NCBI GenBank assembly: GCA_963750185.1
Contig: CAVVPV010000028.1
Location: 57,435-121,434 of the forward strand
Reading direction: 5' to 3'
Source of the DNA: an uncultured Verrucomicrobiae bacterium
GTDB taxonomy: Bacteria > Verrucomicrobiota > Verrucomicrobiia > Chthoniobacterales > JAFAMB01
DNA: 64,000 nucleotides
Positions 30,966 through 64,000 of this stretch are shown here, piece after piece. The notes beneath the pieces were generated by a model. The model did not search any database. It was not told the origin of the DNA and saw only the letters and a list, made by a program, of their open reading frames with translations. Made by a program: the position numbers and the translations under genes. Positions within the stretch are counted from its first letter, which is position 1, and every line of letters starts with the position of its first letter.

Positions 30966-33900
30966 TTAGCGATCTGAACTCTCGGGCGGGGAAAGATGAT
31001 AGGGCTTCCCTTCCTGGTAAAGCTTCAGCCGGATGTTCATTCCCGAAATTTCATTGGTGTCGGAAGAATCGATTAGCTTTAATGCCGCCTGCTGGTCGGC
31101 GATAGCTTGCGCGAAGTTTCCAGCCTCGGCATCAGCCGCCGCCAGCGTATCGAGATCTTCCCAGTACTGTCCTTCTGTTAGAATACAGGCCTGTTTAGCA
31201 TCCCGAACGGCCTGGGTCCCATTGCGCACTTCCGCAGACGGGCAGGTCGCCATGAGCCACGCCCTGCCGCTGTAATTGACCGGGTCCTTCTGGTTGAATT
31301 GAATCGCCGCACCATAAGCGTCGACAGCCTTACGGTAGTTGTCTTGCGCCTCCTGAGTCTTACCTTGGCGATAGAGAATGTAGCCAATCCTTGCGTAAGT
31401 GAGCGACAAATTGTGCCGCCAATCGGTACCGGGGGAATTCTTTTGCACGAACATCGAAAAGCTTTTCAGGGCTGATTGATATTGCCCCGCGGCAGGCTCT
31501 AAGTCGCCCAACATGGTCATGGCATCACCCAAATCTAGATAGCCTAAACCAAGCAAATTTTCCGAGAGAAGATTGCTTCCGTCGTGCTCGCTCAGCGCTT
31601 GGAAGGTGAGGCTTTGCTTGAAATTTTCGCGCGCACTCTCCCATTTGCCCTGGGCACGATAATAGTTCCCGAGGAAGACGTACCCAAAGGCTAACTCCCG
31701 TTGCAGGTCGGTATTGGCGGGGTTTTGTACTGCAAGATTTTTCTCCTTATCCAGTCCACTTGTCAGATAGAACAAGGCGCCGTTTTCGCCGTCGAGTTTA
31801 CCTTTCTGCAAGAGCAGGCGCCCCAGAGTGAGATAACTATAGAAGAGAGAGCGCTGCCAGTTCACATCGTCCTGATGTAATTGGGCATATTTACTTCGAA
31901 TTTGCTTCGCTTGTTCATACGCCTGTCGCGCCTCCTCAAAATGGCCGAGGATATTGTTCGCAATACCGATGCGGCTGTAGGCATTGGCCAGATCGAGTTG
32001 GTATCGTTCATTGTTTTTATCCTGACTGGCGAGCCTCTTCCGAAGATCGAGACTCTGCAGGTAGAAGTTGGTAATAGCCTCGTCTGGGCTGCCCTCCTGC
32101 CTAATAATATCTCCTTTTCGGCTGTAAATGTTGGCGAGTTGCTGGTCGACCCAGATTGCCTGGTCGCCTTCCTGCGATAGCGCGCCCACTTTCTTGGTGA
32201 TTTGCAGGCTCTCATCATAGAGGCGGGAGGCGTCCTCATATTTTCTCTCTAGGAACAGCGCATCGGCCTTACTACCTCCGCTCATAGGATTTGCCGGTCC
32301 GCTGAGTTGTTCGGCCAACTCGCGTTGGTATTTGATTCCGGGAATTCCCGGATTATTATCCGCTAGTTGGCGAGCGATAGAGATGCTTCGGTCATAGCAA
32401 TCCATGGCTTTGGGGAGATTTGCTTCGGCCTTTAGCACGTCTCCCAGGGTCCGGTAGACCGATTCCTGAAAATGGAGCTGGGTATTGCTCATCCCGCCTT
32501 CGTCGATTCTCTGCAGGTCAAGCATTTGCAAAGCTCTGTTGGCCGCTTTGTCCAGCAGCGAAACCCGCCCAAGGCCGCTGAGCTGATGTTGGAGGTCCGA
32601 GAGCATGAAGTCAATCAGATGATCTGCGCTGTCGTTGGAGTGTATGATCTTCTTCTTATAGGCAAAGGCCACCCTCCATTGCCAAATGCTGACCACCAGG
32701 CAGACAAGGGCCAAAAGACAGACGAACTTCAATTGCAGGTTCCGGCGTCGCGTGCTGCGCAATTCGCGATCCTTCGCACGAATCTCCGCATCTGCCTGCG
32801 CGGTCCGTGCTTTGGCTTCCAAGGCCGCTTCTTTGGCTTTTCTCTCGTCGCGGCTTTTCTTGATCACGTCGGTCAGGACATCGTGAGTCAATTCAACGCG
32901 TGGCATCCGGGCGCTGTCTTCGATCCGAATCAAGCGCCGGTCGATAAGTTTTGAAATAGCATCGTGTGAAACCCCCGGTATTGTCAGGGCATCTTGCAGG
33001 TCCACGCTGTTGCGGTAGCCGGAACCCGTGAGGAGCTTGTCCTCAATGAAGTACCGCAATCGCTCGTCGAATCCGCTCAGCGCGCGATCGTAAAAGCCGG
33101 TCAGTATGACCTCTTTGGACCCGGAAATGAGTTGGGGCGTTATTTTGGAATCCCAGCGAGCGATACGGGTGCTGTTTAATTCTCGGCAAAAAACGCTCAG
33201 TAACGTGGGCTCCACCTCGAGATTCGTCAACGGTACGTTCGCGAGCGCATCCCGTCCTGCAACGATCTTGACGATTTTCTCCCCGACTTCCTCGTCAACC
33301 AGCGCGCCGCCGGCATTAACGACGACTTCTAAGGCCTGCCCACCAGTCATCTTTTGAAGACGAAATCGGTTATGGGTGATCGAGGGGAGTTGATTGGAAA
33401 AACCTTCGAGGTTGGCCAGGAAATCTTCGCGAAGTGCAAAAACAACCTTGTAGTCATTTCTATAAAACGAAAATGTCTCCTCGCCGTCAGACTCCAATTG
33501 TATTTCGACGGCTTCGGGTGGACGGTTTTCGATTAGGTCTCCCAATTCCGTAAAAAGGGCGGTTATGCGCCGGTGGCATTTATCCCTGTTTGATCCCAGC
33601 GTAAAAATCTCTTCCAACTGGTCAAAAACGAGGACAGGTGTGATCACTCGCCCTTCTTGCGTCTTGAACTCATTGGTCGCACGATGAAAATAGGCCCAAA
33701 GGGTATCGCCCGGACGAATCAGCGGGGAGGAAATACGGGCCGTGGTGCCGGCATCACGAAGCGTTTCTTGCACCTGCGAGACTAAGTCCGGCGCCGCTTC
33801 GGCATAGTTCAACCGGACGTAAACTGGGAGGAAGTGTTCCCGACGCAACAAGGGAAAAATCCCCGCCTGCAGAAGGGATGTTTTGCCCAAGCCTGACAGC

Positions 33901-34118
33901 CCAAACATTATGGTCAACGTTTCACGCTTGATCAGCCGGAACAGCTCGGCTGCCTCCTTGTCGCGACCATGGAAAAAGGAGGCATTATCCTCGGTGAACG
34001 CGCTTAACCCCGGCCAAGGGTTCTCCTCGTTGACCTGTTTATCGTTCTTTTCGAGTGCCCTGGTATCAGTATGCATTCTCGAACCTTTCGACTTGGCCAT
34101 GAACCGTGCCGAGGACAC
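30966..34118 (-). CDS. nSTAND-type (STAND superfamily) P-loop NTPase with a central hydrophobic helix and C-terminal TPR array
   Basis: The N-terminus NPWPGLSAFTEDNASFFHGRDKE, then Walker A GLSGLGKTS (K79) and Walker B VLVFDQLEE, follow the pattern of nSTAND1-like NTPases. A basic coiled coil covers residues 420-460, and a hydrophobic helix LQLKFVCLLALVCLVVSIWQW spans nt 32676-32738. About 560 aa of TPR-like repeats follow. Alternative starts at 34100 and 34076 all overlap the upstream gene's stop at 34066. Confidence 0.8.
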   Translation of the reverse strand: MSSARFMAKSKGSRMHTDTRALEKNDKQVNEENPWPGLSAFTEDNASFFHGRDKEAAELFRLIKRETLTIMFGLSGLGKTSLLQAGIFPLLRREHFLPVYVRLNYAEAAPDLVSQVQETLRDAGTTARISSPLIRPGDTLWAYFHRATNEFKTQEGRVITPVLVFDQLEEIFTLGSNRDKCHRRITALFTELGDLIENRPPEAVEIQLESDGEETFSFYRNDYKVVFALREDFLANLEGFSNQLPSITHNRFRLQKMTGGQALEVVVNAGGALVDEEVGEKIVKIVAGRDALANVPLTNLEVEPTLLSVFCRELNSTRIARWDSKITPQLISGSKEVILTGFYDRALSGFDERLRYFIEDKLLTGSGYRNSVDLQDALTIPGVSHDAISKLIDRRLIRIEDSARMPRVELTHDVLTDVIKKSRDERKAKEAALEAKARTAQADAEIRAKDRELRSTRRRNLQLKFVCLLALVCLVVSIWQWRVAFAYKKKIIHSNDSADHLIDFMLSDLQHQLSGLGRVSLLDKAANRALQMLDLQRIDEGGMSNTQLHFQESVYRTLGDVLKAEANLPKAMDCYDRSISIARQLADNNPGIPGIKYQRELAEQLSGPANPMSGGSKADALFLERKYEDASRLYDESLQITKKVGALSQEGDQAIWVDQQLANIYSRKGDIIRQEGSPDEAITNFYLQSLDLRKRLASQDKNNERYQLDLANAYSRIGIANNILGHFEEARQAYEQAKQIRSKYAQLHQDDVNWQRSLFYSYLTLGRLLLQKGKLDGENGALFYLTSGLDKEKNLAVQNPANTDLQRELAFGYVFLGNYYRAQGKWESARENFKQSLTFQALSEHDGSNLLSENLLGLGYLDLGDAMTMLGDLEPAAGQYQSALKSFSMFVQKNSPGTDWRHNLSLTYARIGYILYRQGKTQEAQDNYRKAVDAYGAAIQFNQKDPVNYSGRAWLMATCPSAEVRNGTQAVRDAKQACILTEGQYWEDLDTLAAADAEAGNFAQAIADQQAALKLIDSSDTNEISGMNIRLKLYQEGKPYHLSPPESSDR

Positions 34119-35442
34119 TCTTAATCCAGTTCAAAAATTCAGCCGTCAGGTGACCTCCCGGAAAAATTTCGTAATGCTTGTTTCCGAACCGCAGCGGTAC
34201 CGCGGCATCATCAATCGGTATCGGAATCAAAAACAGTTCCTCGGCATTCATCCGGCGGGCCCGCTCTTCAGCGCACTTCCATTCCTCGTAGAAGACGCCT
34301 TCCCGACGGCGTTGCGTGTTGCGTGAGACTATTGGGAAAAAGAGAAAACAGCTGAGTATAGTTTGATGAATCTTCTCTGACCACTCTTCGCCGTGCCGAA
34401 TCCGGCTGCGGTCCAGCCAGACATTCAATCCGGCCGCTTCCAGGGATTCCGCAATTCGGAAAGCCGCGTCGAAATCCTCGCGGGCATAGCTCAAAAATAT
34501 GACCTCTTCTTCCGGGTCTGGCTTGATAGTTCGGAAAGAACTATCAACGGTCGCGTTGTCCTCTGCTGTATCGTCCGGATAGCGTTCCTGCCAGCGTTCG
34601 AGAAGTTGATCGACAAATTCAATCGGGCCGCTTTCAGTGTAAACCTCCGCCTGATTCCGGCCGAAGCTCTCGAGGAAGAAAATGAAATTCGAGTCCTTCC
34701 GCACCTGCTCGTCAGCCAGGTACTGCATCATGTAGCTGCTTCCAGCCGAAAATCGTTCTCCCCTGGCCAAGCGAACGAAAAATCGGGCAAGCCAGTCCGG
34801 AAAGCTATTTCCAATAAAAAGAAGATGATTATTTCTTAGTTCGTCGAAGAGTCGATTCGGTCGGCGTTCCTTCGATTGCAGCGATGAGATAAATTCCAGG
34901 GTATCCTCGTCCGTTACAGCATAGTCCGGAATAGCCGATACCTTGCCAAAGAGCCTGAAAACAAGAGGCTGTCTCAAATGATGATAATCGGTTGGCAGGT
35001 CCGACTCATCCCGCAATTGGTTTGGCACGTAGACCCGGCTGATTGTCCGCGGAGCGCCGGCGAAACGTTCTGCGTTCAGGGCTTGTTCGAGAAGAGAATC
35101 GAATGTGGTGCTGACAAAGAGCTTTAGCGGCTTTATTCGGGCGAGCTTTCTCAAAGGATCAGGGATGTCTATCGAGATTTTTTCCAGGATGGATCTAATT
35201 TTCCGGTAGATCGTCGAAGGCGGCTTCCCCGTTTTTAGATGTTTGCACACAACATCATTGATGTTGTAGTCACTTCGCAATGTCCCCGGATCAATTCCCA
35301 GTTCGGCTGCAAGCAAGGTAGCGATATGATGATAAAGAAGAACATCCCGGCCGCCGACTTGAATATTCAGAAGCTCGGGACCAAGGACGGGAACGACTCT
35401 CTCGTCCTTAATAAAATCGATCAGATCATCCCAGAATTCCAT
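34066..35442 (-). CDS. SIR2-like (SIR2_2-type) domain fused to a C-terminal TIR domain
   Basis: N-terminal blocks: VVPVLGPELL, LFVSTTFDSLLEQAL, VFRLFGKV, AVTDEDTLEF, LLFIGNSFPDWLARFF. By eye these align with the SIR2_2 motifs (G.G.S / TTNYD.LLE / KLHGS / T..DY / F.GYS..D). C-terminal residues 313-440 look like TIR: VIFLSYAREDFDAAFRIAESLEAAGLNVWLDRSRI..GEEW...FFPIVSRNT...FYEEWKCA. Confidence 0.75.
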   Translation of the reverse strand: MEFWDDLIDFIKDERVVPVLGPELLNIQVGGRDVLLYHHIATLLAAELGIDPGTLRSDYNINDVVCKHLKTGKPPSTIYRKIRSILEKISIDIPDPLRKLARIKPLKLFVSTTFDSLLEQALNAERFAGAPRTISRVYVPNQLRDESDLPTDYHHLRQPLVFRLFGKVSAIPDYAVTDEDTLEFISSLQSKERRPNRLFDELRNNHLLFIGNSFPDWLARFFVRLARGERFSAGSSYMMQYLADEQVRKDSNFIFFLESFGRNQAEVYTESGPIEFVDQLLERWQERYPDDTAEDNATVDSSFRTIKPDPEEEVIFLSYAREDFDAAFRIAESLEAAGLNVWLDRSRIRHGEEWSEKIHQTILSCFLFFPIVSRNTQRRREGVFYEEWKCAEERARRMNAEELFLIPIPIDDAAVPLRFGNKHYEIFPGGHLTAEFLNWIKSVLGTVHGQVERFENAY

Positions 35443-35901
35443 ACGGTCGGCCTAATTATGAGAACACGACATTTTGTTTAAGCATCGGCGAATTGCCGCC
35501 GATTACTGTCTCCGCTAAAGGTTAATACAGTTTTTTCCGTTTCCAGGTTTCGAAAATGGGAAGAAAGCTTTTCTTAAAGCTTCAAAAAGTGAAATTCAGT
35601 CAATCGCCAGACGCTCAGTCGTCGTTCTCGCATTGGCGGCGGACTAACCAAAGTGCCTCGTGCGAAACTATTGGAAAGGGTGCAGCCAACGAATCTTGAC
35701 TGACTCCAAGCAGCTCTGGACATGCGGATAATGCTTTCCGAGTGGCTTGCAACGGGCGAAGCTTTAACAAGTTTGTAAATTGCGAAATCTTGAGGCTAGC
35801 CTCAAAACTCCAGATCCGCCCCTGGCGGCAGATAGGCAGGAAGAGGAACCGAGATGAGATGGTTTTGCTCTGGTAGAAGAGGGTGAAGAAGGCTGCTTTT
35901 T

Positions 35902-36328
35902 TTGCCCGAATGTGGCAACAATTTCGGCATGCCACAGGTACAATTACCGATCTTTCCGGCAGGAGTCACGCACATCAATTCGGAGGTCGCCTTTGAGGGG
36001 CGGGATGGAAAGGTGTACTACTTTAATGGCCATCTGCCGGTGTTTGTCCATGAGAAGAGTGCTCTGGGGACTTTCCGGCTTTTTAGTACCCAATTGGTCA
36101 TCAATGGCAATGCGACTCAAGCGGAGATCTGATCCCGGATTACTGAGTGTGTTGGGTGAGCAGATTGTGCCACGGCTCAAAGCCGATGTGCCAAACCAGC
36201 CCACTGAAAAGCAACCGGAAGCAGACCCGCTCTTAAGCCGCTTTACCATCGTCTTCGACCGCGAAGGCTACTCGCCACGCTTCTTCGCCCAGATGAAAGA
36301 GGAGCGCATCGCGAGCCTTCGATTTTAG
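35902..36328 (+). pseudogene. Internally deleted, frameshifted fragment of the same transposase family as 20159-21432
   Basis: An N-terminal 75 aa (MPQVQLPIFPAGVTHINSEVAFEGRDGKVYYFNGHLPVFVHEKS...) ends in a stop. Another frame then gives GEQIVPRLKADVP...RFTIVFDREGYSPRFFAQMKEERIA. This matches RQSIVPRLLAEAP...RFTLIFDREGYSPDFFAELKAQRIA of the 20-kb copy. Confidence 0.7.
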
Positions 36329-36393
36329 CCGTGAATCAGTCCGTTACGCGGTCGGGCTTGAAACGGACTGACAGAAACTTCGGGAGATAGTCA

Positions 36394-36427
36394 GCGGTCG
36401 GCTTATGCCCGACCGCAGTAATTTTTT
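36394..36427 (+). terminator. Putative intrinsic terminator (plus-strand sense)
   Basis: An 8-bp GC stem gcggtcgg/ccgaccgc (36394-36401 / 36409-36416) is followed by aattttttg (T-run at 36422-36427). Confidence 0.45.
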
Positions 36428-36446: not shown

Positions 36447-37241
36447 CTACTTGGTCTCCATTTCCTGGTCCCACGGTTTTGCCAGCTGGTGGAGGAGCGC
36501 TTTGGCCTGTAATGGCGGCAATTGTGGAAAAACTGAAAGGATTCGTGCGAGTAGCGCCGTCACGTGAGGGGCGGCGAAACTGCTACCTGAGGTCGATTTT
36601 CGCCTTCTGTTGCGCCACGGAACATCGACTTTTTCGCCATTCGCCACAAACTCCACAAGCGCCCCCGGTCGATAATACAACTCTTCCGAGTGAAGCTGGC
36701 GAAAGTCGACGGTAATCACCGAAGCAAAGGACCCCGGCCACTCCGGTTGACGAAAATCTACATTGCTGCAAGCGGCAACGATGTGGGTCCCTTTAAGGTA
36801 CGCTTCGTCCACCCAGCTCTTATATCGAAGGATATGATCCGGCAAGCCACACCCAAAACTGCAATTCAGTATTTCGTAGTTGCGCGCCAACGCTTGGCGC
36901 GCGCCTTCGCGCACTATATCGGTCTTCGACATGTTAAATGCATCTAAGATGCGGAAACTGCCGATTTCAGCCTCGGGTGCCAGGCGATGAATGATTCCGG
37001 CGATGGCTGTACCGTGGCCAAATACGTCCGTATTTTCCCCCTGCTTGACCTCAGGTTGCACTCCGGACTCTGCGATCTGTAGATCGTCTGCGGACTTGAG
37101 CCCGGCCAGGTCTGGATGATCGAACTCGATGCCGCTGTCGAGAACCGCTATGCGCACGCCTTTGCCGGAGCCGTGCAGCATCGCTTGCCGGGCTCTATCC
37201 AGGTCGATCCACATGGGTGTCGAATCTAAGCTGCGTTCCAT
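36447..37241 (-). CDS. Subtilisin-like S8 serine peptidase, no signal peptide or prodomain
   Basis: 264 aa. Catalytic triad contexts: AVLDSGIEFDHPDL (Asp), FGHGTAIAGII (His), TSGSSFAAPHVTA (Ser). It overlaps the upstream GAF gene by 16 nt. Confidence 0.88.
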   Translation of the reverse strand: MERSLDSTPMWIDLDRARQAMLHGSGKGVRIAVLDSGIEFDHPDLAGLKSADDLQIAESGVQPEVKQGENTDVFGHGTAIAGIIHRLAPEAEIGSFRILDAFNMSKTDIVREGARQALARNYEILNCSFGCGLPDHILRYKSWVDEAYLKGTHIVAACSNVDFRQPEWPGSFASVITVDFRQLHSEELYYRPGALVEFVANGEKVDVPWRNRRRKSTSGSSFAAPHVTALLARILSVFPQLPPLQAKALLHQLAKPWDQEMETK

Positions 37242-37834
37242 CCCAACGCCTCGCGCAACATTTGGAAGTCGATGAGATCGCGCATGATCGATGCGCCGTC
37301 CTTCAATGCGAGCAAGTCCTTTCGAGCGAAGCCGGGAGGAATAGGTCCGACCGGGACGGCTTGCCCTGCCGCAAGGTAAGCGTCGATCAGCTGTACGCAG
37401 GTAATGACACCTCGCCGCTGATTGAGAAAATAGAACGGAACTACGATCATCGCATAGGTTGTTTGATTTAGCAGGCGATTGAGTTCATGATCGTGCTCGA
37501 CGTTCTTGTAGACTTCGTTTTCGACCAGGCCCTGCTCAGTCGCGAATGTTGCGCTAACGAGACCCTTGGAAAGCGATTGCGCGAAGCCGATTACCTTCTG
37601 TGCGTTTGGACCGCTATTATAAGCAATGACCAGATTCTTTTTTTCTGTGTCCAGAAGCCAGATGCTGCCTTCCGCTGCGCCGACGGCGCCAAAGGTCCGT
37701 TCCAGAAACCGAAAAATGATAGGATCGCAGAAATCCACGAAGTTTCGGTGATCGATCAGTCGGGCCATTTTTGCCAGTTGGTCCTGCAGCGCTGGTTTTA
37801 GATCAAGAAAAACTTCGCTTGGAATAAAATTCAT
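37226..37834 (-). CDS. GAF-domain protein
   Basis: 202 aa with a GAF-like pattern: GAAEGSIWLLDTEKKNLVIAYNSGPNA...GLVSATF...VVPFYFLNQRRGVITCVQLID. Confidence 0.7.
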   Translation of the reverse strand: MNFIPSEVFLDLKPALQDQLAKMARLIDHRNFVDFCDPIIFRFLERTFGAVGAAEGSIWLLDTEKKNLVIAYNSGPNAQKVIGFAQSLSKGLVSATFATEQGLVENEVYKNVEHDHELNRLLNQTTYAMIVVPFYFLNQRRGVITCVQLIDAYLAAGQAVPVGPIPPGFARKDLLALKDGASIMRDLIDFQMLREALGWNAA

Positions 37835-38492: not shown

Positions 38493-38978
38493 CTAGAGTT
38501 CGTATCTGACAGGCTTCGTCTCACGCGGGACGTAGAGAGGGTGGTATGGATAGCCGGCTTTCGTTCTTTTAAGACAATACAAATCAATTTGCGATAGGAT
38601 CTTTAATACGCGCGTGCATCGATCCTGATGGCGACCAAGAGTCCCCCATGCTGCGATCACCAGTTCAGTGTCGCAGACCGCTTGGAGGATGCACCGATCA
38701 TTCTCCGGTCCGACCGGATCCGGCTCTGTGTAAAGCCGGGTCGGGTCGGTCGAGACCAGCGCAAACAGGTTGGTCATGATGAATCCGTTGCATCCCCAGG
38801 CAGTGGAAAACTCGCGGATGCGCCGAAGCGTGGGGTCGAGCCGGGTCTCATCGGCAACACTGGGATTTAGCCCTATCCATGTACATAGCATTGGGGCAAA
38901 TAGAGATTCCCAGGTATGCTTGAGCAAATATCGGTACCTGCGATCAGGACTAAAAACAGAGTCGTTCTGCATCACCAA
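38493..38978 (-). CDS. DUF1643 family protein
   Basis: 161 aa. The blocks RYRYLLKHTW...WIGLNPSVADETRLDPTLRRI...GFIMTNLFA...VIAAWG...HPLY match my memory of the DUF1643 pattern. Confidence 0.7.
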   Translation of the reverse strand: MVMQNDSVFSPDRRYRYLLKHTWESLFAPMLCTWIGLNPSVADETRLDPTLRRIREFSTAWGCNGFIMTNLFALVSTDPTRLYTEPDPVGPENDRCILQAVCDTELVIAAWGTLGRHQDRCTRVLKILSQIDLYCLKRTKAGYPYHPLYVPRETKPVRYEL

Positions 38979-39001
38979 GCCTTCTACTGTTCTGCGCCCC
39001 G

Positions 39002-39403
39002 TTACTGTATAAGGCTTTGAAGGAACTCTCGGCGCTCGTTGATGAGTCGGATGAGGTTAGAATGCACATCCTCCATCAGCGCGCTGCCGCCGACTGCACC
39101 ATCGCTGTATGCTCGCATCACGGCTTCTGCGTCGCGCCACTTTATCCAAGCACGTTCGGCCCCAACCAATGCATTTTTGAAGTTACTGGCGCCGGGCTCT
39201 CCTGCTTTGATACGACCGTCCAGGATAGCGAGGATCCTTTGATAATCGAGATCGAGATCGGCATTCGCTTCTTCAATTCGCTTGTTCTGAACTCTCAGGT
39301 CGTCATTCTCTGAAGCGTTGCTTTGAGCGGCGCTCATGCAAATGCCTACCGCCGCTAGGACAGCGATGAGGCGCATCAGTCTGATAGCTTCATAGTCCAA
39401 CAT
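39002..39403 (-). CDS. DUF1311 / LprI-like (lysozyme-inhibitor family) secreted protein
   Basis: Signal peptide MRLIAVLAAVGICMSAAQS. DUF1311-type helices are present (LDLDYQRILAIL...AERAWIKWRDAEA...GGSA...LINERREFL). It overlaps the upstream SLT-like gene by 14 nt. Confidence 0.65.
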   Translation of the reverse strand: MLDYEAIRLMRLIAVLAAVGICMSAAQSNASENDDLRVQNKRIEEANADLDLDYQRILAILDGRIKAGEPGASNFKNALVGAERAWIKWRDAEAVMRAYSDGAVGGSALMEDVHSNLIRLINERREFLQSLIQ

Positions 39404-40298
39404 TTTTCTTCGTCAATGCTACGATTTGGTCCAATTTGTGCCCGGCTCTGAGCGTCGACCAATACCTTGCCGCTCCACGAAATTTGCCGCTAGCGCTGTT
39501 TGCGACCGTTTTGTCTCGCTCGACAAGTGTGGCAAAGATTATCACGGCGCACCTAAGGTTCACCAGTGGGTCATCCAAGCTCCCCGCCGCTTGGCTGAGA
39601 GGCTCCAGTTTGTAGCTCTCTTGATCCTGGTAGCTGAGTTGTAAAAGTCCTATAGAGTCCACGCCGAGAGGAGGCGGTTCGTGGTAAACATCACGCGGAT
39701 TCCAGCTCGACTCAAATTTGGCGACTGCGATGAGCAGCTCGGCCCAGAACTTGATACGAAGAGCAGGTGACAGCGTGCTGTAGCCGTCAATGAACGCATT
39801 GGGATTGCCAAGCTCTAGCTGGGCGATGCGGTCTGTGACAGAGGCGATAAGCTGAGCAGACCAAGCTTTTCGCAGTAGCACGGTATCCCAACTCAGGTTA
39901 GTTGGTTTGAGCGGATCGCCCGCATCCGGTTTCGGAGCCTCGACTAACCTGGCGACGGCGAGAGAAGTGTCGCTCCCTTTGATTGAGACAATAGGACAAT
40001 AAAGGATGACAGACTGGCCGTTGTCTGCCATCTGCTTGACGAAGCCGGCGCTTTTTGCGGAGTCGACCGAGTAGGTGTCGCCGGTTTGCGCAAATAGGCC
40101 GTTGGGTGTCGGAACAAGTCGAATATCTTGTAGCTTCTCAGTACGGGGTTGAAAGGAGGCTAAATTCACCGGCACTCCAGCCTTCGTACCTTTGCTTAGA
40201 TCAACTAGCTCAGATCCTGCATCTTCCTGGCTTTGTATGCCGGTGTGAAGATCTTCTAATGAGATGGTTAGAGGTGCATCGAGTATCTTTAAGGCCAT
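39390..40298 (-). CDS. Protein with a C-terminal SLT-like lytic transglycosylase/lysozyme-like domain and an unknown N-terminal domain
   Basis: 302 aa. AVAKFESSWNPRDV...VDSIGLLQLSY resembles the SLT catalytic E-S and GLMQ motifs. No signal peptide is visible. Confidence 0.6.
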   Translation of the reverse strand: MALKILDAPLTISLEDLHTGIQSQEDAGSELVDLSKGTKAGVPVNLASFQPRTEKLQDIRLVPTPNGLFAQTGDTYSVDSAKSAGFVKQMADNGQSVILYCPIVSIKGSDTSLAVARLVEAPKPDAGDPLKPTNLSWDTVLLRKAWSAQLIASVTDRIAQLELGNPNAFIDGYSTLSPALRIKFWAELLIAVAKFESSWNPRDVYHEPPPLGVDSIGLLQLSYQDQESYKLEPLSQAAGSLDDPLVNLRCAVIIFATLVERDKTVANSASGKFRGAARYWSTLRAGHKLDQIVALTKKNVGL

Positions 40299-40367
40299 GT
40301 GATTCTTCCTCTCTTCGAGCCGAAACTCGTGCTTGCTTGGGTTTTGGTTGAATACTTTCTTTGGCTG

Positions 40368-41561
40368 TCAAATGGTGCCGGCCGTATCGGGAACATCTTT
40401 TGGCGTACAAATTGGTACGGAGCTCAGAGCGGGTGAGAGAAGCGCGCCGTTTGTACTCGGAACACTTTTTGGGGTGGAAATCGGTACAGAGGTAATTGCG
40501 GGCGGTAATTTAGACGCGCCATTTCCCTGCGACAATGCCGGTTTCTGATCGACGACGGTGACCGTGGCTTTATTGCTGTCCTCCGAATCGACAGTGACTG
40601 CAATTGCCGTCTGTCCCACGGAAAACGGCGGAGCGGACACCGTCAGTACGATCGAAGTGTCGCTCCAACTCTTGACGACCACGGGTTGATCCGGGGCGAT
40701 TCCCTGCAATGTTATGACACTGCCAAGTTGAGTGGCACCGAAGGAGCTCCCGGTAAGAGCTACGTCGGCACCGATCGACACGTACGTCGGAGTCACCTTC
40801 GAAATCGTAGGCGTGGTCGTAACAATAAGTTTCTTGCCAAGATAGGCGCCATGGCCCAATCCCATCAACACCATCAGAGCAGGATCGATATCTGGCAGAC
40901 TCTTGAAATTATAGATGTCATGAATAGTCCTTGCGACACTTGCGAGATAAGCGCCGATCGCAATGATCGTCCAGCCAATCACCTGGATCTTGGTCAAATC
41001 AATCGCTCCACTGTCATCTTTAACGAGATCACCGGATCGCGCATCGTCCGGGTTAATATGGTCCTTCGTACCCGTTCCGTTGTTCAGTTGGTTAACGGTA
41101 ATGCCCTTAGCCGCTACTGCCGAAGCAATGCTGAAGCCCATCGCAAGGAGCAAATTGCCGGGTATATCAGGTCCAGGAGAAACGGCATTTCCGGTGCCTA
41201 TCCGCGCGGCGTACAGGCTCGCGTACGCGAAGAGTGCGGTGAGCGTCCATAAAAAGAATTGAAACTTTGAAGTGCTCAAGCGGTTATCAGCACCTCGTAT
41301 AATCTCCAGTGCGTTCCAACTCCCGGCCAGAAAGCGATAAAACGCCCACAACAGCAACAAAACTGCGATCCCTACGAGAAACGAAGAGCTTCGGCACAGC
41401 GTAAGAATCGACTGTGAAAGCGACCACACGCAAGCCCCTAGCGCCTTTTGCTGCCAAAAAAATACAACCGTCAGGATCACGAGCAACCAGAACACGTACT
41501 TTGCTACGGAGTTCCCGTTAGCCGAGATCTTGGCGAACCGCCTTTTAATCTGATCATTCAT
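40368..41561 (-). CDS. Polytopic membrane protein with a C-terminal IPT/TIG-like domain
   Basis: 397 aa with several hydrophobic helices. It then has TPTISKVTPTYVSIGADVALTGSSFG...VVVKSWSDTSIVLTVSA (IPT/TIG-like beta sandwich). The tail is an 18-aa duplication (ITSVPISTPKSVPSTNGA / LSSVPICTPKDVPDTAGT). Confidence 0.6.
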   Translation of the reverse strand: MNDQIKRRFAKISANGNSVAKYVFWLLVILTVVFFWQQKALGACVWSLSQSILTLCRSSSFLVGIAVLLLLWAFYRFLAGSWNALEIIRGADNRLSTSKFQFFLWTLTALFAYASLYAARIGTGNAVSPGPDIPGNLLLAMGFSIASAVAAKGITVNQLNNGTGTKDHINPDDARSGDLVKDDSGAIDLTKIQVIGWTIIAIGAYLASVARTIHDIYNFKSLPDIDPALMVLMGLGHGAYLGKKLIVTTTPTISKVTPTYVSIGADVALTGSSFGATQLGSVITLQGIAPDQPVVVKSWSDTSIVLTVSAPPFSVGQTAIAVTVDSEDSNKATVTVVDQKPALSQGNGASKLPPAITSVPISTPKSVPSTNGALLSPALSSVPICTPKDVPDTAGTI

Positions 41562-61697: not shown

Positions 61698-62089
61698 TTA
61701 GCTAGAGCCTGTTGCGAAATAGCTGCAAGCCGCGTCCCGTAGGGACACACCGATTGTAGCCTGGCACGCAGTGCCTGGGAAGCGTGTCTAGAAAGAAGCC
61801 GTCCCGTAGGGTACGGTATGATCGGGCGGGACGGCTCGTTTAGGGCGCGCTGTACCAGGCACTTCGTGCCAGGCTACGATCATGCAGTCCCTCCGGGACA
61901 TTTGGCCGGTAGCTCTCACGCCGCCACATGCCCACGGCACCGCGCTAATCACATATCAGACCGTATCCCTAGACCTGCGGGGCGGCGACTCTTCGGGCAT
62001 GCATTCCAGGAGTTCGTACCGGGTTACCATCGTTCACCACCCGGCGTCTCTTTCGATCTCCGGCACATTTCGCAACAGGCTCTAGCTAA
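61698..62089. mobile_element. MITE-like non-coding element bounded by perfect 23-bp terminal inverted repeats
   Basis: ttagctagagcctgttgcgaaat (61698-61720) is the exact reverse complement of atttcgcaacaggctctagctaa (62067-62089). The interior holds inverted copies of tagcctggcacg(c/a)agtgcctgg and gtcccgtagggac-type hairpins. No coding capacity is evident. Confidence 0.6.
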
Positions 62090-64000
62090 ACGATTTTCCG
62101 GAGCCTGAATCCCGATTTTTCAATCAGCGGCCCCAGATTTCTGACCGTGTCGCGGTCCTTTTCTTTCTCGGGTTCCGACAATTGCGTCCACGGAACGAGC
62201 AGGGGATGATGCTTACGGGAATTGTCTCTCGAAGGTGCAAAGGTCCAGCCGTTTTGACGGCGCTCGTCCATCCAGCGGTCATGCTCGCGGATGGCGAGGT
62301 CTTCGATCTCGTGTGCGGCGAGCTGGAGCTTTGAAGGGCTAAGTCCGTGACTTGGCGAGAGCTCGTAGCCGAGCCGGTTTAACTTGTTAGGAATGTCAGC
62401 GGCTTGAGCGCGATTAGCGTCCTTGACGTCTTCTGATAATTCTTCCCAGGGCCGCAGCGCGCTGTTATTCGCCGGCGTCTTCCCTGCGGCTTGGGCTTTC
62501 GCACAATAAAACGAGTGGATCGCCTTTGCTAGCTCTTCGATATCCAAAGAACGTTTAGGGATGATGCGATAAATGCGATATTGGCCTGGGAAATCTTTTG
62601 CCAATTTCATGCTGCCGGCATATTCGCAGATGAAGCGTGATTCCTGCTGACTTTGGCCGCTGTTGATTCGCCGCTGGATTTCCGAACCTAATTCGGCCAT
62701 GGCCGCAAACTCTTCGCTCGCATAGACCTCTCCCGGTCTGGTTACCGGCTCGATCCTTGCCGCACGACTGACGTGTGCGCCGGTGAAACCAAGTTGGCGA
62801 ACAACAGGATTATAGTGCATGAATACCGGGCCGCTATGGAGTCCGATCCGAATGTTAAGCGGTGTCTGGACTTTTTCGCCGTCACCCGGGGAAGGTGCCT
62901 CGTAATAAAGACCGCGGCTTATCCAAGTTTCTTCGCCCTCTTTGATCAACTTTGTTAATTCGAGAGCAAAGCAGCCTGCGTCGTGCGCAAGGTCGAACAC
63001 CGCGTACACAGCGTCTCCCCAAGTACTGACGCTTATCGGCGCGTGTTTACTGGAAGCGAGCAATTGAGAGACTTGCTCCAGGAATACCCCTACAAATTCA
63101 GGAATTACCTTCTCGGTTAGTTTGCTGTATCCAACGATATCTGCGAATAACATGCTCTTCACTTCCTGGTGAAGTGTGGCTCGCTCGCTTCGGTTCTTTA
63201 GAGGCCGGAAATAGGTTACGGGATCCGGTGCCTCGGGCATTCGGACGATGATCGGTTCCTGTTTCAGCTCATGTCTCCAAAAGTGGACAAACGAAGCGGT
63301 CCCGCCTTCTCCGGCGCCAGGCAAGCCGTCCCAAAGCACCATTGGTTGAACATCCAATCGGGAAGCTCGCGCCGTATGGAGCGCGAGACCGGCGGTTACT
63401 TCGAGGGCAAATTGCCAGCTGACATCGCTCCCCGGCTCATACAGTTGACCGATTTCACGGACGGTTGCCGCATCGCGAATAGCCTGGTCGAACAGGGGAG
63501 TCCAAATCGCTGGACCATGCTCCGGCTCAAATTGAGTGACGCTAGTTTGGCGAAACTCGGCCTTGGACCACGGAAGCACAACGTGAACTTCTGCCCCGCG
63601 CTCTCGCAGTGCTTCAATGAAAAGAAGATCAGCACCGGCAGCTGCGTTTACGAGGCCCACTCGCACGTCCGCATCAATGACTTGCGCGCTCAAACGCTTA
63701 CGGACCAGATCGAGTATTTCAATTGGGAAACGGCCTCTTTGTCCGGGTGGATCCGGCAAATGCCCGGAAAAAACAACCAGCTGTAGCGGGGGAAAGGCTG
63801 ACTTAAAGAAGCTTCGTGGTTGACCGACCGCTTCTGCCAAAAATTGAGCGTCGTACCTGGCACCGGCCAGATCTGCGACCTTGACGCCATGCAGCCCTGC
63901 CATGTCGTGATAATTGGCAAAGGCAATGTCCAGCTCACCGAGGATGGTATGCGCGATCGCGCGAGCGTGCACGACAGCAACTCCAGGACCCTCGTCCTGT
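62086..64000 (-). CDS. Multidomain signalling protein: unassigned Rossmann-like N-terminal domain + class III nucleotidyl cyclase + RyR-domain repeats (5' end outside window)
   Basis: Cyclase blocks: SMLFADIVGYSKL, TWGDAVYAVF, RIGLHSGPV, FTGAHVSRAARIE. C-terminal RyR-like blocks: LAKAIHSFY...PWEELSEDVKDANRAQAADIPNKL and IREHDRWMDERRQNGWTF...HPLLVPWTQLSEPEKEKDRDTVRNL. The frame upstream of the track's GTG (63972) stays open to base 63999, so the gene is probably 5'-truncated by the window. Confidence 0.75.
   Translation of the reverse strand, partial: QDEGPGVAVVHARAIAHTILGELDIAFANYHDMAGLHGVKVADLAGARYDAQFLAEAVGQPRSFFKSAFPPLQLVVFSGHLPDPPGQRGRFPIEILDLVRKRLSAQVIDADVRVGLVNAAAGADLLFIEALRERGAEVHVVLPWSKAEFRQTSVTQFEPEHGPAIWTPLFDQAIRDAATVREIGQLYEPGSDVSWQFALEVTAGLALHTARASRLDVQPMVLWDGLPGAGEGGTASFVHFWRHELKQEPIIVRMPEAPDPVTYFRPLKNRSERATLHQEVKSMLFADIVGYSKLTEKVIPEFVGVFLEQVSQLLASSKHAPISVSTWGDAVYAVFDLAHDAGCFALELTKLIKEGEETWISRGLYYEAPSPGDGEKVQTPLNIRIGLHSGPVFMHYNPVVRQLGFTGAHVSRAARIEPVTRPGEVYASEEFAAMAELGSEIQRRINSGQSQQESRFICEYAGSMKLAKDFPGQYRIYRIIPKRSLDIEELAKAIHSFYCAKAQAAGKTPANNSALRPWEELSEDVKDANRAQAADIPNKLNRLGYELSPSHGLSPSKLQLAAHEIEDLAIREHDRWMDERRQNGWTFAPSRDNSRKHHPLLVPWTQLSEPEKEKDRDTVRNLGPLIEKSGFRLRKIV

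What the first reader, a model, noticed from the sequence alone, without database searches (positions are those of the whole stretch)
34123..35442. The SIR2-like domain seems to lack both canonical catalytic residues while the fused TIR keeps its glutamate
I aligned the N-terminal domain by eye to the SIR2_2 motifs used by ThsA/DSR-type enzymes. The TTNYD block reads STTFD (Phe114, nt 35101-35103) and the KLHGS block reads RLFGK (Phe165, nt 34948-34950). So the Asn and His normally needed for NAD+ cleavage are both Phe.

The TIR half retains the W/F-x-x-E context (FYEEWKCA, E385/E386, about nt 34285-34290), where TIR NADases place their catalytic Glu.

Inference: the SIR2-like module may have become a non-catalytic nucleotide-binding or oligomerisation domain. 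It could, for example, sense a TIR-made NAD-derived signal, or recruit the STAND partner. That arrangement would be a Thoeris-like signal/receiver logic collapsed into a single polypeptide.
Basis: partly seen in the sequence, partly recalled or inferred. Interest (0 to 1): 0.6.

Follow-up and report, generated by a model that had tools for sequence, protein, structure and literature searches.

The report
Dead SIR2 domain fused to TIR
This gene encodes a two-domain protein whose SIR2-type half has lost the residues needed to cleave NAD+ while its TIR half keeps its catalytic glutamate. It belongs to a large, unstudied bacterial family that always sits next to a membrane-anchored STAND ATPase, which makes the pair a likely new immune or conflict system.

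Summary
The ORF at 34066..35442 (-) encodes 458 aa: an N-terminal SIR2_2-like domain and a C-terminal TIR_2 domain.

Profile alignments to ThsA confirm that both canonical SIR2 catalytic residues are missing. TTNYD aligns to S111-T112-T113-F114-D115, so Asn becomes Thr113 and Phe114 replaces the Tyr. The Gly-rich GAGxS loop is also lost (G21-P22-E23-L24-L25).

The TIR glutamate that matches SPARTA E77 is E387. It was present in every family member checked. E386 varies.

The pattern holds across the family, which has at least 951 clusters at 50% identity and is found in at least 561 species genomes. The His position is never His, and the SIR2-like half is as conserved as the TIR half.

In 83 of 83 fetched loci the gene is followed directly by an nSTAND1 NTPase. 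That partner usually carries one conserved hydrophobic helix before a variable C-terminal sensor, which is TPR in this window.

Most likely reading: the TIR is the NADase effector. The degenerate SIR2 domain is a scaffold or coupling module for the STAND sensor. The Thoeris-in-one-polypeptide idea has no support. I class this as a new variant of known STAND/TIR conflict systems; it is uncharacterised.

The parts
34066..35442 (-). Gene for the 458-aa SIR2-like/TIR fusion protein (stop codon at 34066-34068)
   Evidence: ORF listed. Pfam SIR2_2 plus TIR_2. More than 1559 homologs with the same architecture. AF2 model with mean pLDDT 84.
34558..35442 (-). Degenerate SIR2-like domain (aa 1-295), Rossmann-type fold
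   Evidence: The best Foldseek PDB hits are BcThsA, SeThsA and EcThsA (E 6e-13 to 1e-11), then KomC, Avs5 and DSR2. hhalign against the ThsA family gives 95.8% probability. The domain is as conserved as the TIR: mean pairwise identity 66.5% against 67.4%.
35374..35382 (-). G21-P22-E23, in place of the GAG NAD-phosphate loop
   Evidence: hhalign aligns GAGLS with G21-P22-E23-L24-L25. Position 23 is E or D in 83/84 sequences.
35098..35112 (-). S111-T112-T113-F114-D115, in place of TTNYD. The catalytic Asn is replaced by Thr113.
   Evidence: Alignments. T113 and D115 are each 84/84. Among 150 representatives, position 113 is T in 129 and N in only 5.
34942..34956 (-). R163-L164-F165-G166-K167, in place of K-L/M-H-G. 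The catalytic His is replaced by Phe165.
   Evidence: Alignments. Position 165 is F, L or M and never His in 84 and in 150 sequences. Position 163 is His in 77/84 family members but Arg in this window.
34123..34506 (-). TIR_2 domain (aa 313-440)
   Evidence: Pfam TIR_2, E 3.8e-16. The closest solved relatives are the SPARTA TIR-APAZ proteins. The best PADLOC hits are Argonaute-associated TIR models.
34282..34284 (-). E387, the equivalent of the catalytic Glu of TIR NADases
   Evidence: The family profile aligns E387 with E77 of TIR-APAZ. E77A abolishes NADase activity (PMC9097488). E387 is present in 55/55, 84/84 and 125/125 aligned sequences.
30966..34118 (-). Partner gene: nSTAND1 NTPase, hydrophobic helix, then TPR array. 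The start codon is ambiguous (GTG 34118, ATG 34100 or ATG 34076). The gene overlaps the upstream gene by 11-53 nt.
   Evidence: Pfam nSTAND1 at aa 34-284 (E 1.6e-29) and TPR families at aa 661-1021. Public gene calls give 1036 or 1044 aa. A homolog lies directly downstream in 83/83 loci.
32661..32741 (-). Predicted single transmembrane helix of the partner (aa 460-486 of the 1050-aa ORF)
   Evidence: Kyte-Doolittle window score 2.35. The helix is conserved in 67 partners, with more K/R on the NTPase side (5.4 against 2.8). It is present in 91/102 further nSTAND1 homologs, whatever their C-terminal domain.
31056..32138 (-). C-terminal TPR array of the partner (aa 661-1021), the presumed sensor
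   Evidence: Pfam TPR_12, TPR_2, TPR_1 and TPR_10 hits.

Best explanation
The gene encodes the effector subunit of a conserved two-gene STAND system.

The C-terminal TIR domain is the working enzyme, an NAD+-consuming NADase of the SPARTA-like TIR_2 type. The N-terminal domain keeps the ThsA/DSR2-type SIR2 fold but has lost every canonical NAD-handling motif: the Gly-rich loop, the Asn and the His. It therefore cannot act as a sirtuin-type NADase. It is nonetheless under selection as strong as the TIR.

Its most likely role is a non-catalytic scaffold or coupling module. It would dock on, or co-polymerise with, the cytoplasmic nSTAND1 NTPase of the neighbouring protein. That would bring TIR domains together into the oligomeric state that TIR NADases need for activity.

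The partner is predicted to be a single-pass membrane protein. Its NTPase would face the cytoplasm and its TPR array would lie outside. The trigger would then be sensed at the envelope, and the output would be NAD+ depletion, growth arrest or cell death.

Shown: the domain identities, the motif losses, their conservation across the family, and the gene linkage. Inferred: TIR activity, the scaffold role, the membrane topology and the biological trigger.
For: - **Domains and fold:**
- **Motif losses, by two independent profile alignments:**. The catalytic roles of ThsA N112 and H152 come from PMC7272460 and from bioRxiv 10.1101/2024.09.18.613514.
- **Loss across the whole family:** no His at position 165 in 84 genomes or in 150 representatives of 50%-identity clusters. 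T113 is 84/84 and E/D23 is 83/84.
- **The SIR2-like half is not decaying:** mean pairwise identity is 66.5% against 67.4% for the TIR. Columns conserved at 95% or more make up 25% against 28%.
- **TIR:** E387 is present in every aligned sequence and aligns to catalytic E77 of TIR-APAZ.
- **Strict linkage:** an nSTAND1 homolog (44-67% identity) lies directly downstream in 83/83 loci. The genes overlap or abut. Searching from the STAND side again finds the SIR2-like/TIR gene upstream even when the sensor is WD40 or short.
- **Relatives without either module:** related TIR-TM-TPR single-chain proteins have a TIR 42-46% identical to this one and lack both the SIR2-like domain and the STAND. In the loci examined, the SIR2-like domain therefore goes together with the STAND partner.
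- **One fused example:** a single nSTAND1::SIR2-like::TIR chain exists (P0287).
- **Precedent for SIR2 domains as polymerising modules:** ThsA, KomC, Avs5 and FAM118B are all solved as helical filaments (PDB titles; PMC12700824).
- **Membrane helix and K/R bias:**
Against: - No biochemical data exist for any family member.
- The former pocket residues T113, D115, E179, D180 and E183 are invariant. That fits a ligand-binding or new catalytic site at least as well as a pure scaffold.
- Most family members, though not this window, have a His two residues upstream (H163, 77/84). It could reach the pocket.
- No physical SIR2-STAND contact has been shown. The single fused protein could be an assembly or tandem-duplication accident.
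- PADLOC has no model for the system. The window is not an obvious defence island. An anti-phage role is therefore an assumption.
- The family is absent from phages and nearly absent from plasmids.
Confidence: 0.55

Rival explanations
1. The SIR2-like domain is an allosteric ligand sensor. It would bind NAD+, ADPR or a TIR-made NAD derivative without cleaving it, and gate or amplify TIR activity. This covers the reader's Thoeris-in-one-chain or feed-forward idea, and is analogous to the NAD+/NMN-sensing ARM domain of SARM1.
For: Polar residues at the former active-site loops are invariant: T113, D115, E179, D180 and E183 are each 84/84, and G21 and G166 are also invariant. The whole domain is as constrained as the TIR. 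The parallel with SARM1's regulatory NAD-binding domain rests on established knowledge and was not tested here.
Against: In BcThsA, N112A or H152A alone abolishes NAD+ binding (PMC7272460). Here both residues are lost and GAG has become GPE. No known signal-binding domain such as SLOG, Macro, SAVED or CARF was detected. The TIR is closest to NAD-depleting SPARTA TIRs, not to ThsB-type signal producers. No downstream effector gene is conserved that would need a signal.
Confidence: 0.2
2. The SIR2-like domain is still an enzyme with a rewired active site. It might use H163 in most members, or the invariant Thr/Asp/Glu cluster, and act on NAD+ or another nucleotide. The protein would then be a dual-enzyme effector.
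For: H163 is present in 77/84 genomes and 103/150 representatives, two residues before the canonical His position. Five of the 150 representatives still have the Asn, for example P0248 with TTNYD. Acidic residues in the pocket are strongly conserved.
Against: Position 163 is Arg in this window and varies elsewhere (Q, G, S, A, Y). It is therefore not essential to the family. Every characterised SIR2 NADase matched here depends on the Asn/His pair or on the His. That is shown for ThsA N112/H152 and FAM118B N163/H206, and is implied by the mutant PDB entry titles DSR2 H171A and KomC H146N. The phosphate-binding Gly loop is lost.
Confidence: 0.1
3. The TIR is mainly a homotypic adaptor rather than the executing enzyme. 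It would bridge to other TIR proteins, such as the TIR-TM-TPR receptors encoded next to the pair in some genomes. The pair would then be a signalling hub, not a suicide effector.
For: Tandem TIR-TM-TPR genes with a closely related TIR (42-46% identity) flank the pair in loci L059, L063, L077 and L042. A variant carries a Death-like adaptor domain (bDLD3) inserted between the SIR2-like and TIR domains (P0168).
Against: The catalytic Glu is present in every aligned family member. Such complete conservation would not be expected if it had no catalytic role. Most loci, including this window, have no neighbouring TIR protein.
Confidence: 0.1

Closest known systems
Thoeris type I effector ThsA (SIR2-SLOG), e.g. 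BcThsA 6LHX/8BTO and SeThsA 7UXT
   Same: It is the best structural and sequence match for the N-terminal domain (Foldseek E 6e-13; hhalign 95.8%). Both are two-domain proteins of about 460-480 aa with SIR2 first and a Rossmann-like second domain. ThsA-type SIR2 domains assemble into filaments.
   Different: ThsA has GAGxS, N112 and H152 and is the NADase. This protein has GPE, Thr113 and Phe165. ThsA's second domain is a SLOG signal receptor, whereas this one is a TIR with a catalytic Glu. There is no ThsB partner here; the partner is an nSTAND1 NTPase.
SPARTA TIR-APAZ (short pAgo-associated TIR NADase), e.g. 8FEX and 8ISY
   Same: It is the closest solved relative of the TIR domain (profile E about 1e-10). 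The catalytic Glu aligns (E77 with E387). TIR-APAZ is an NAD+-depleting effector activated by oligomerisation of a sensor partner.
   Different: In SPARTA the sensor is an Argonaute bound through APAZ. Here the non-TIR part is a degenerate SIR2 domain and the sensor is a STAND NTPase.
Avs5 / AVAST type 5 (SIR2-STAND single chain), e.g. 9JAP and 9NC9
   Same: Both combine a SIR2-fold domain with a STAND NTPase, and Avs5 acts through filament assembly.
   Different: In Avs5 the SIR2 domain is the active NADase and is fused to the NTPase. Here the SIR2 domain is inactive, sits on a separate polypeptide with a TIR, and the STAND belongs to the nSTAND1 clade with a predicted membrane helix. No PADLOC Avs model matches.
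nSTAND1-centred conflict systems from comparative genomics (Kaur, Burroughs, Iyer, Aravind 2021, PMC8195603)
   Same: Both have an nSTAND1 NTPase with C-terminal repeat or lectin-type sensors and with TIR among the associated effectors. One family variant carries bDLD3, the adaptor used in those systems.
   Different: The section read describes effectors fused to the NTPase or linked through paired EADs. It does not mention a constant degenerate SIR2-like/TIR protein in an adjacent gene or a membrane helix in the NTPase protein.
Vertebrate FAM118B/FAM118A (SIRanc) sirtuins linked to TIRAP/TLR signalling
   Same: Both are SIR2 domains of the same immune ('SIRim') type (Foldseek hit 9R0P). Both are associated with a TIR protein and a repeat-containing transmembrane receptor pathway. 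The FAM118B gene is syntenic with TIRAP in 73% of metazoans.
   Different: FAM118B keeps N163 and H206 and is an active NADase. The link to the TIR is by synteny and pathway, not by fusion. Any evolutionary connection to this family is untested.

Membership tests
SIR2_2 / ThsA-DSR2-type SIR2 NADases | SIR2 Rossmann-type fold recognisable by profile and by structure | tested here: met
   Pfam SIR2_2, E 1.6e-10. Foldseek against ThsA, KomC, Avs5 and DSR2 gives E 6e-13 to 1e-6, with TM-score on the target up to 0.70. hhalign gives 95.8% probability.
SIR2_2 / ThsA-DSR2-type SIR2 NADases | Catalytic Asn of the TTNYD motif (ThsA N112) | tested here: not met
   The aligned residue is Thr113. It is T in 84/84 genomes. 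Only 5 of 150 representatives have N.
SIR2_2 / ThsA-DSR2-type SIR2 NADases | Catalytic His of the K-L/M-H-G motif (ThsA H152) | tested here: not met
   The aligned residue is Phe165. It is F, L or M and never His in 84 and in 150 sequences.
SIR2_2 / ThsA-DSR2-type SIR2 NADases | Gly-rich GAGxS loop after strand 1 | tested here: not met
   The aligned residues are G21-P22-E23-L24-L25. Position 23 is E or D in 83/84 sequences.
SIR2_2 / ThsA-DSR2-type SIR2 NADases | NAD+ binding and hydrolysis | not testable with these tools
   This needs an enzyme assay.
TIR-domain NADases (TIR_2, SPARTA-like) | TIR domain profile match | tested here: met
   Pfam TIR_2, E 3.8e-16. The family profile against TIR-APAZ chains gives E 2e-10.
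TIR-domain NADases (TIR_2, SPARTA-like) | Catalytic Glu | tested here: met
   E387 aligns to E77 of TIR-APAZ and is present in all aligned sequences. E77A abolishes activity.
TIR-domain NADases (TIR_2, SPARTA-like) | Oligomerisation-dependent NADase activity | not testable with these tools
   This needs biochemistry.
Thoeris (ThsA + ThsB) | Effector with a signal-binding domain (SLOG, Macro or TM) and an active SIR2 or equivalent | tested here: not met
   No SLOG or Macro domain was found. The only PADLOC ThsA matches are weak and confined to the SIR2 region (E 2e-4). The SIR2 catalytic residues are absent.
Thoeris (ThsA + ThsB) | Separate ThsB TIR sensor gene in the operon | tested here: not met
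   The conserved neighbour is an nSTAND1 NTPase in 83/83 loci. There is no ThsB-like gene in the window.
STAND/NLR-type conflict systems with an nSTAND1 NTPase | nSTAND1 NTPase with an intact P-loop plus a C-terminal repeat sensor | tested here: met
   Pfam nSTAND1, E 1.6e-29, plus TPR families. The Walker A motif GLSGLGKTS can be read directly in the translation.
STAND/NLR-type conflict systems with an nSTAND1 NTPase | Effector fused to the NTPase or tethered through paired effector-associated domains | tested here: not met
   The effector is a separate adjacent gene. Pfam, PADLOC and NCBIfam detected no effector-associated domain on either protein. Exceptions are one fused representative (P0287) and one variant with bDLD3 (P0168).
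Avs / AVAST | Match to known Avs models | tested here: not met
   PADLOC returns no Avs or NLR model for the partner, only a weak TPR hit.

The most novel reading that the evidence does not exclude
The pair is a bacterial outside-in surveillance receptor with Toll-like logic. An extracytoplasmic repeat sensor (TPR here; WD40 or lectin-like FGS in relatives) is linked through a single membrane helix to a cytoplasmic STAND NTPase. The NTPase recruits a soluble TIR enzyme through a SIR2 domain that has been converted from an NADase into an assembly adaptor. Single-chain TIR-TM-TPR relatives would be the simpler form of the same design. The SIR2/TIR/transmembrane-receptor association would echo the FAM118B-TIRAP-TLR link in animals.
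Probability: 0.2. Interest if true: 0.8.

Novelty: new variant of a known kind. Interest (0 to 1): 0.58.

Why it matters
SIR2 and TIR are the two main NAD+-destroying effector domains of prokaryotic immunity, and both have counterparts in animal and plant immunity.

This is a very large family: at least 951 clusters at 50% identity, found in at least 561 species genomes. Carriers include Beta- and Gammaproteobacteria, Opitutaceae and Acidobacteria-type lineages such as Thermoanaerobaculia and Holophagae. In this family one of the two domains has been retired as an enzyme, yet it is kept under strong selection beside an intact copy of the other. To my knowledge from the papers searched, this would be the first clear case of a SIR2 domain repurposed as a structural or regulatory module.

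The family's obligatory partner is a STAND NTPase that appears to be membrane-anchored with an external sensor. That would extend NLR-like sensing to the cell envelope.

Cultured or fully sequenced carriers exist, so the predictions can be tested directly. Examples are the Paraburkholderia caribensis MBA4 chromid and the complete genome CP058931.1.

Tried and rejected
- **PADLOC and NCBIfam** hold no model for either protein as a system.
- **Literature searches** found no description of the family. Terms tried were SIR2-TIR, TIR-SIR2, inactive SIR2, nSTAND1, SIR2_2 with TIR_2, and PF13289 with PF13676.
- **Phage records** gave no hit. **Plasmid records** gave one full-length hit, on a 2.5-Mb chromid.
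- **The apparent 'TIR-only + nSTAND1-WD40' locus L092** was rejected. tblastn shows the SIR2-like/TIR reading frame is continuous there.
- **The apparent 'SIR2 alone + TIR::nSTAND1 fusion' locus L093** was also rejected. The match hops between three frames, which points to frameshift errors in a long-read assembly.
- **Single-linkage clustering of flanking ORFs** was contaminated by long antisense ORFs in these GC-rich loci. Only the cyclase/TPR-S cluster and the TIR-TM-TPR genes were taken further.
- **H206 (81/84)** was considered as a substitute catalytic His and rejected on topology. It lies at the N-terminal end of a strand, on the side of the sheet away from the pocket.
- **The promoter/terminator scan** of the operon region gave nothing above the shuffled expectation for promoters.
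Full report
**What is at the coordinates**

The minus strand carries an ATG-to-stop ORF at 34066..35442, encoding 458 aa. Pfam finds SIR2_2 at aa 108-239 (E 1.6e-10) and TIR_2 at aa 315-423 (E 3.8e-16). PADLOC matches only domain pieces: Argonaute-associated TIR models, and weak ThsA hits over the SIR2 region. NCBIfam has no family-level model.

The quoted strings are all present:
- STTFD is aa 111-115.
- RLFGK is aa 163-167.
- FYEEWKCA is aa 384-391.
- F114 is nt 35101-35103 and F165 is nt 34948-34950.

**Is the N-terminal domain a SIR2 fold, and which residues sit at the catalytic positions?**

An AlphaFold2 model was built on 55 homologs. It has mean pLDDT 84, and above 90 for most of residues 1-140. 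Foldseek against the PDB puts ThsA structures first: BcThsA 8BTP/8BTO, SeThsA 7UXT, EcThsA 8WC0 and 6LHX, at E 6e-13 to 3e-11. KomC, Avs5 SIR2-STAND, DSR2, SPARSA and human FAM118B follow. TM-scores normalised to the target reach 0.70 for isolated SIR2 domains. The fold assignment is therefore sound.

For the register I used two independent profile methods.
1. An HMM of the N-terminal 300 residues of 18 family members was searched against PDB sequences. It aligns to SeThsA 7UXT.
2. hhalign was run against a 22-sequence alignment of ThsA-type SIR2 domains. That alignment shows the canonical FAGAGLS, WTTNYD, YKMHGD and GFSFxDPN blocks. The comparison gives probability 95.8%, E 7.7e-9, over 193 columns.

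Both methods give the same answer:
- TTNYD aligns to S111-T112-T113-F114-D115.
- K-M/L-H-G aligns to R163-L164-F165-G166.
- GAGLS aligns to G21-P22-E23-L24-L25 (hhalign only).

These three segments follow predicted strands 16-20, 108-111 and 160-163. That is the C-terminal edge of the parallel sheet, where SIR2 enzymes bind NAD+.

The Asn, however, is replaced by Thr113, and Phe114 replaces the Tyr.

In BcThsA, N112A and H152A each abolish both NAD+ cleavage and NAD+ binding (PMC7272460). The equivalent N163A and H206A mutants inactivate human FAM118B.

**Is this one odd sequence or a family property?**

The protein has more than 1559 homologs with the same two-domain architecture and a length of about 460 aa. 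A profile of the SIR2-like domain alone finds 951 clusters (50% identity) at E<=1e-30, and 4776 at E<=1e-3. A scan of one genome per species finds relatives in at least 561 genomes. The 80 best loci come mainly from Beta- and Gammaproteobacteria and Opitutaceae. A few come from Thermoanaerobaculia, Holophagae, Thermodesulfobacteriota, Chitinophagaceae, Acidimicrobiia and others.

Residue counts in 84 genome-derived sequences:

| Position | Residues observed |
|---|---|
| 113 | T 84/84 |
| 115 | D 84/84 |
| 165 | L 50, F 33, M 1 (never His) |
| 21 | G 84/84 |
| 23 | E 73, D 10, N 1 |

In 150 more diverse cluster representatives, position 165 is again only F, L or M. Position 113 is T in 129 and N in 5 (for example P0248, which reads TTNYD).

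Most members have a His two residues upstream (H163: 77/84 and 103/150). This window has Arg there, and other members have Q, G, S, A or Y. That His is therefore not a family requirement.

The SIR2-like half is not decaying. Its mean pairwise identity is 66.5%, against 67.4% for the TIR. Columns conserved at 95% or more make up 25%, against 28% for the TIR. Several polar residues around the former pocket are invariant: T113, D115, E179, D180 and E183.

**The TIR half**

The closest solved relatives are the TIR-APAZ subunits of SPARTA. The family profile aligns the E of the motif EG[YV]F-x-x-E-W with E77 of TIR-APAZ. The E77A mutant has no NADase activity (PMC9097488). In this protein that residue is E387. 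It is present in 55/55, 84/84 and 125/125 aligned sequences. E386 is usually Arg. The claim that the TIR keeps its glutamate is confirmed, with corrected numbering.

**Surroundings**

The next ORF downstream on the same strand (30966..34118, 1050 aa from the GTG start) overlaps the first gene by 11-53 nt, depending on the start codon chosen. It encodes an nSTAND1 NTPase (E 1.6e-29) with a P-loop reading GLSGLGKTS, followed by TPR repeats at aa 661-1021.

A tblastn search with its NTPase domain finds a homolog (44-67% identity) immediately downstream, on the same strand, in all 83 loci fetched through the SIR2-like/TIR protein. Starting instead from the NTPase, three further contexts again show the SIR2-like/TIR gene directly upstream. 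This holds even where the STAND protein ends in WD40 repeats or in a short C-terminal domain. Two apparent exceptions turned out to be gene-calling or frameshift artefacts.

One cluster representative is a single nSTAND1::SIR2-like::TIR chain, found in a tandem array of the system (P0287). Another carries a bacterial Death-like domain (bDLD3) between the SIR2-like and TIR domains and is also followed by an nSTAND1 gene (P0168).

nSTAND1 systems with TIR and other effectors were outlined by comparative genomics (PMC8195603). I found no description of this effector architecture.

**A conserved membrane helix in the partner**

The partner has one strongly hydrophobic segment, aa 460-486, between a coiled-coil stretch and the TPR array. 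The same feature lies about 430 residues after the NTPase start in 67 of the fetched partners. There are more Lys/Arg residues on the NTPase side (5.4 against 2.8 per 15 residues).

The helix is present in 91 of 102 further nSTAND1 homologs of sufficient length, whether the C-terminal domain is TPR, WD40, FGS or short. The NTPase needs ATP and the TIR needs NAD+, so both must be cytoplasmic. A single helix then implies that the sensor domain lies outside the cytoplasm, as in the PknB- or ToxR-type topology. This is an inference from hydropathy only.

In some Opitutaceae loci the pair is flanked by tandem genes for TIR-helix-TPR proteins. Their TIR is 42-46% identical to this one, and they lack both the SIR2-like domain and a STAND. 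In the loci examined, the SIR2-like domain therefore appears together with the STAND partner.

**How it most likely works**

The shown facts are:
- a SIR2 fold without its NAD machinery but under strong constraint;
- an intact SPARTA-like TIR;
- obligatory coupling to an nSTAND1 NTPase.

From established knowledge, TIR NADases need ordered self-association. STAND NTPases oligomerise on ligand recognition. ThsA, Avs5, KomC and FAM118 SIR2 domains all work as helical filaments (PMC12700824).

I infer that sensor activation causes the STAND to oligomerise. This would recruit or nucleate the effector through its SIR2-like domain and so assemble the TIR domains into an active NADase that depletes NAD+. 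My confidence in this overall picture is about 0.55. Confidence is higher for the parts: roughly 0.85 that the SIR2-like domain is not a canonical NADase, and at least 0.9 that the two genes form one system.

**Rivals**

1. The invariant pocket residues favour this. The loss of all NAD-binding determinants and the absence of any signal-dependent second effector count against it.
2. The domain has a rewired catalytic site using H163. This is unlikely, because H163 is absent here and variable elsewhere.
3. The TIR acts mainly as an adaptor. The universally conserved catalytic Glu counts against this.

**Comparison with known systems**

- The N-terminal domain resembles ThsA most, but it fails three of the four sequence features that define active SIR2 NADases. 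The operon also lacks the defining Thoeris parts.
- The TIR resembles SPARTA's TIR-APAZ, but there is no Argonaute or APAZ.
- The SIR2-plus-STAND combination recalls Avs5. There, however, the SIR2 is active and fused to the NTPase.
- The best filing is a new variant within the nSTAND1/STAND-TIR conflict systems. Its distinguishing features are a constant degenerate SIR2 module and a membrane-anchored NTPase.

**Context and caveats**

The window is metagenomic. An ENA contig carries the identical genes. The neighbourhood is chromosomal: ClpC-type ATPase, SPFH proteins and oxidoreductases, and it is not an evident defence island. The family is absent from phage records and almost absent from plasmids. 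An anti-phage role is therefore assumed by analogy, not shown. No residue-level 3D superposition could be run.

Noticed in passing
window 32661-32741 (-), within the partner gene 30966-34118: The nSTAND1 partner has one strongly hydrophobic helix between the NTPase/coiled-coil part and the TPR array. It is conserved in 67 fetched partners and in 91/102 further nSTAND1 homologs, whatever their C-terminal sensor (TPR, WD40, FGS or short). K/R residues are enriched on the NTPase side. This suggests a membrane-anchored STAND with an extracytoplasmic sensor.
   Followed up: partly
loci L059 3439-5844, L063 134-5919 and 10569-12614, L077 3640-5928, L042 8909-10615: Tandem genes for TIR_2 / hydrophobic helix / TPR proteins flank the pair, mainly in Opitutaceae. 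The helix was detected in five of the seven proteins checked (not in L063 4783-5919 or L042). Their TIR is 42-46% identical to the window TIR and shares the EGYFRxEW motif. Their layout resembles Toll-like receptors, and they lack both the SIR2-like domain and a STAND.
   Followed up: partly
window 62086-63972 (-); loci L001 5049-7655, L016 10654-12561, L007 3921-5822, L094 3831-5273: In 25 of 83 loci a protein of about 600 aa lies next to the pair. In the two examples scanned it carries TPR-S (with or without MAP3K_TRAF_bd) plus a class III nucleotide cyclase domain. In Paraburkholderia caribensis the neighbour has TPR-S/MAP3K_TRAF_bd without a cyclase. The window has a cyclase+RyR homolog, but it is 28 kb away. 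This may be a facultative third component or an independent neighbouring system.
   Followed up: partly
window 35600-36400; junction at 36130/36131: An IS remnant lies directly upstream of the SIR2-like/TIR gene. The otherwise identical ENA contig (L084) has 910 extra bases at window position 36130/36131. Those bases complete a Transposase_29 gene and an HTH gene.
   Followed up: partly
window 36447-37241 (-) and 37226-37834 (-): A 264-aa subtilase (Peptidase_S8) matches the PADLOC 'subtilase' model (E 1.3e-20) and IetS models (best E 3.8e-9). It overlaps by 16 nt with an upstream 202-aa ORF that has no Pfam match. This may be a separate two-gene defence-like module.
   Followed up: no
proteins P0168 (locus L089), P0287 (locus L090), P0182, P0238: Four architectural variants of the family were seen. 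P0168 is SIR2-like + bDLD3 (Death-like adaptor) + TIR. P0287 is an nSTAND1::SIR2-like::TIR single chain inside a tandem array. P0182 is a Ser/Thr kinase + SIR2-like domain, possibly truncated. P0238 is a partial TIR + SIR2-like + TIR.
   Followed up: partly
window 34954-34956 (-), residue R163: Most family members have His at position 163, two residues before the canonical catalytic His position (77/84 genomes). The window's clade has Arg, and others have Q, G, S, A or Y. Five of the 150 representatives still keep the Asn of TTNxD. The family seems to record a stepwise loss of the SIR2 active site.
   Followed up: partly
window 34066-34118: The two genes overlap by 11-53 nt, depending on whether the partner starts at GTG 34118, ATG 34100 or ATG 34076. 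Public gene calls use the latter two. In orthologous loci the genes abut or overlap by 4 nt, which suggests translational coupling.
   Followed up: partly
window 38493-41561 (-): A run of small envelope-related genes lies upstream: DUF1643, an LprI-like lysozyme inhibitor, an SLT transglycosylase-domain protein, and a membrane protein with an IPT/TIG domain. Any relation to the system is unknown.
   Followed up: no
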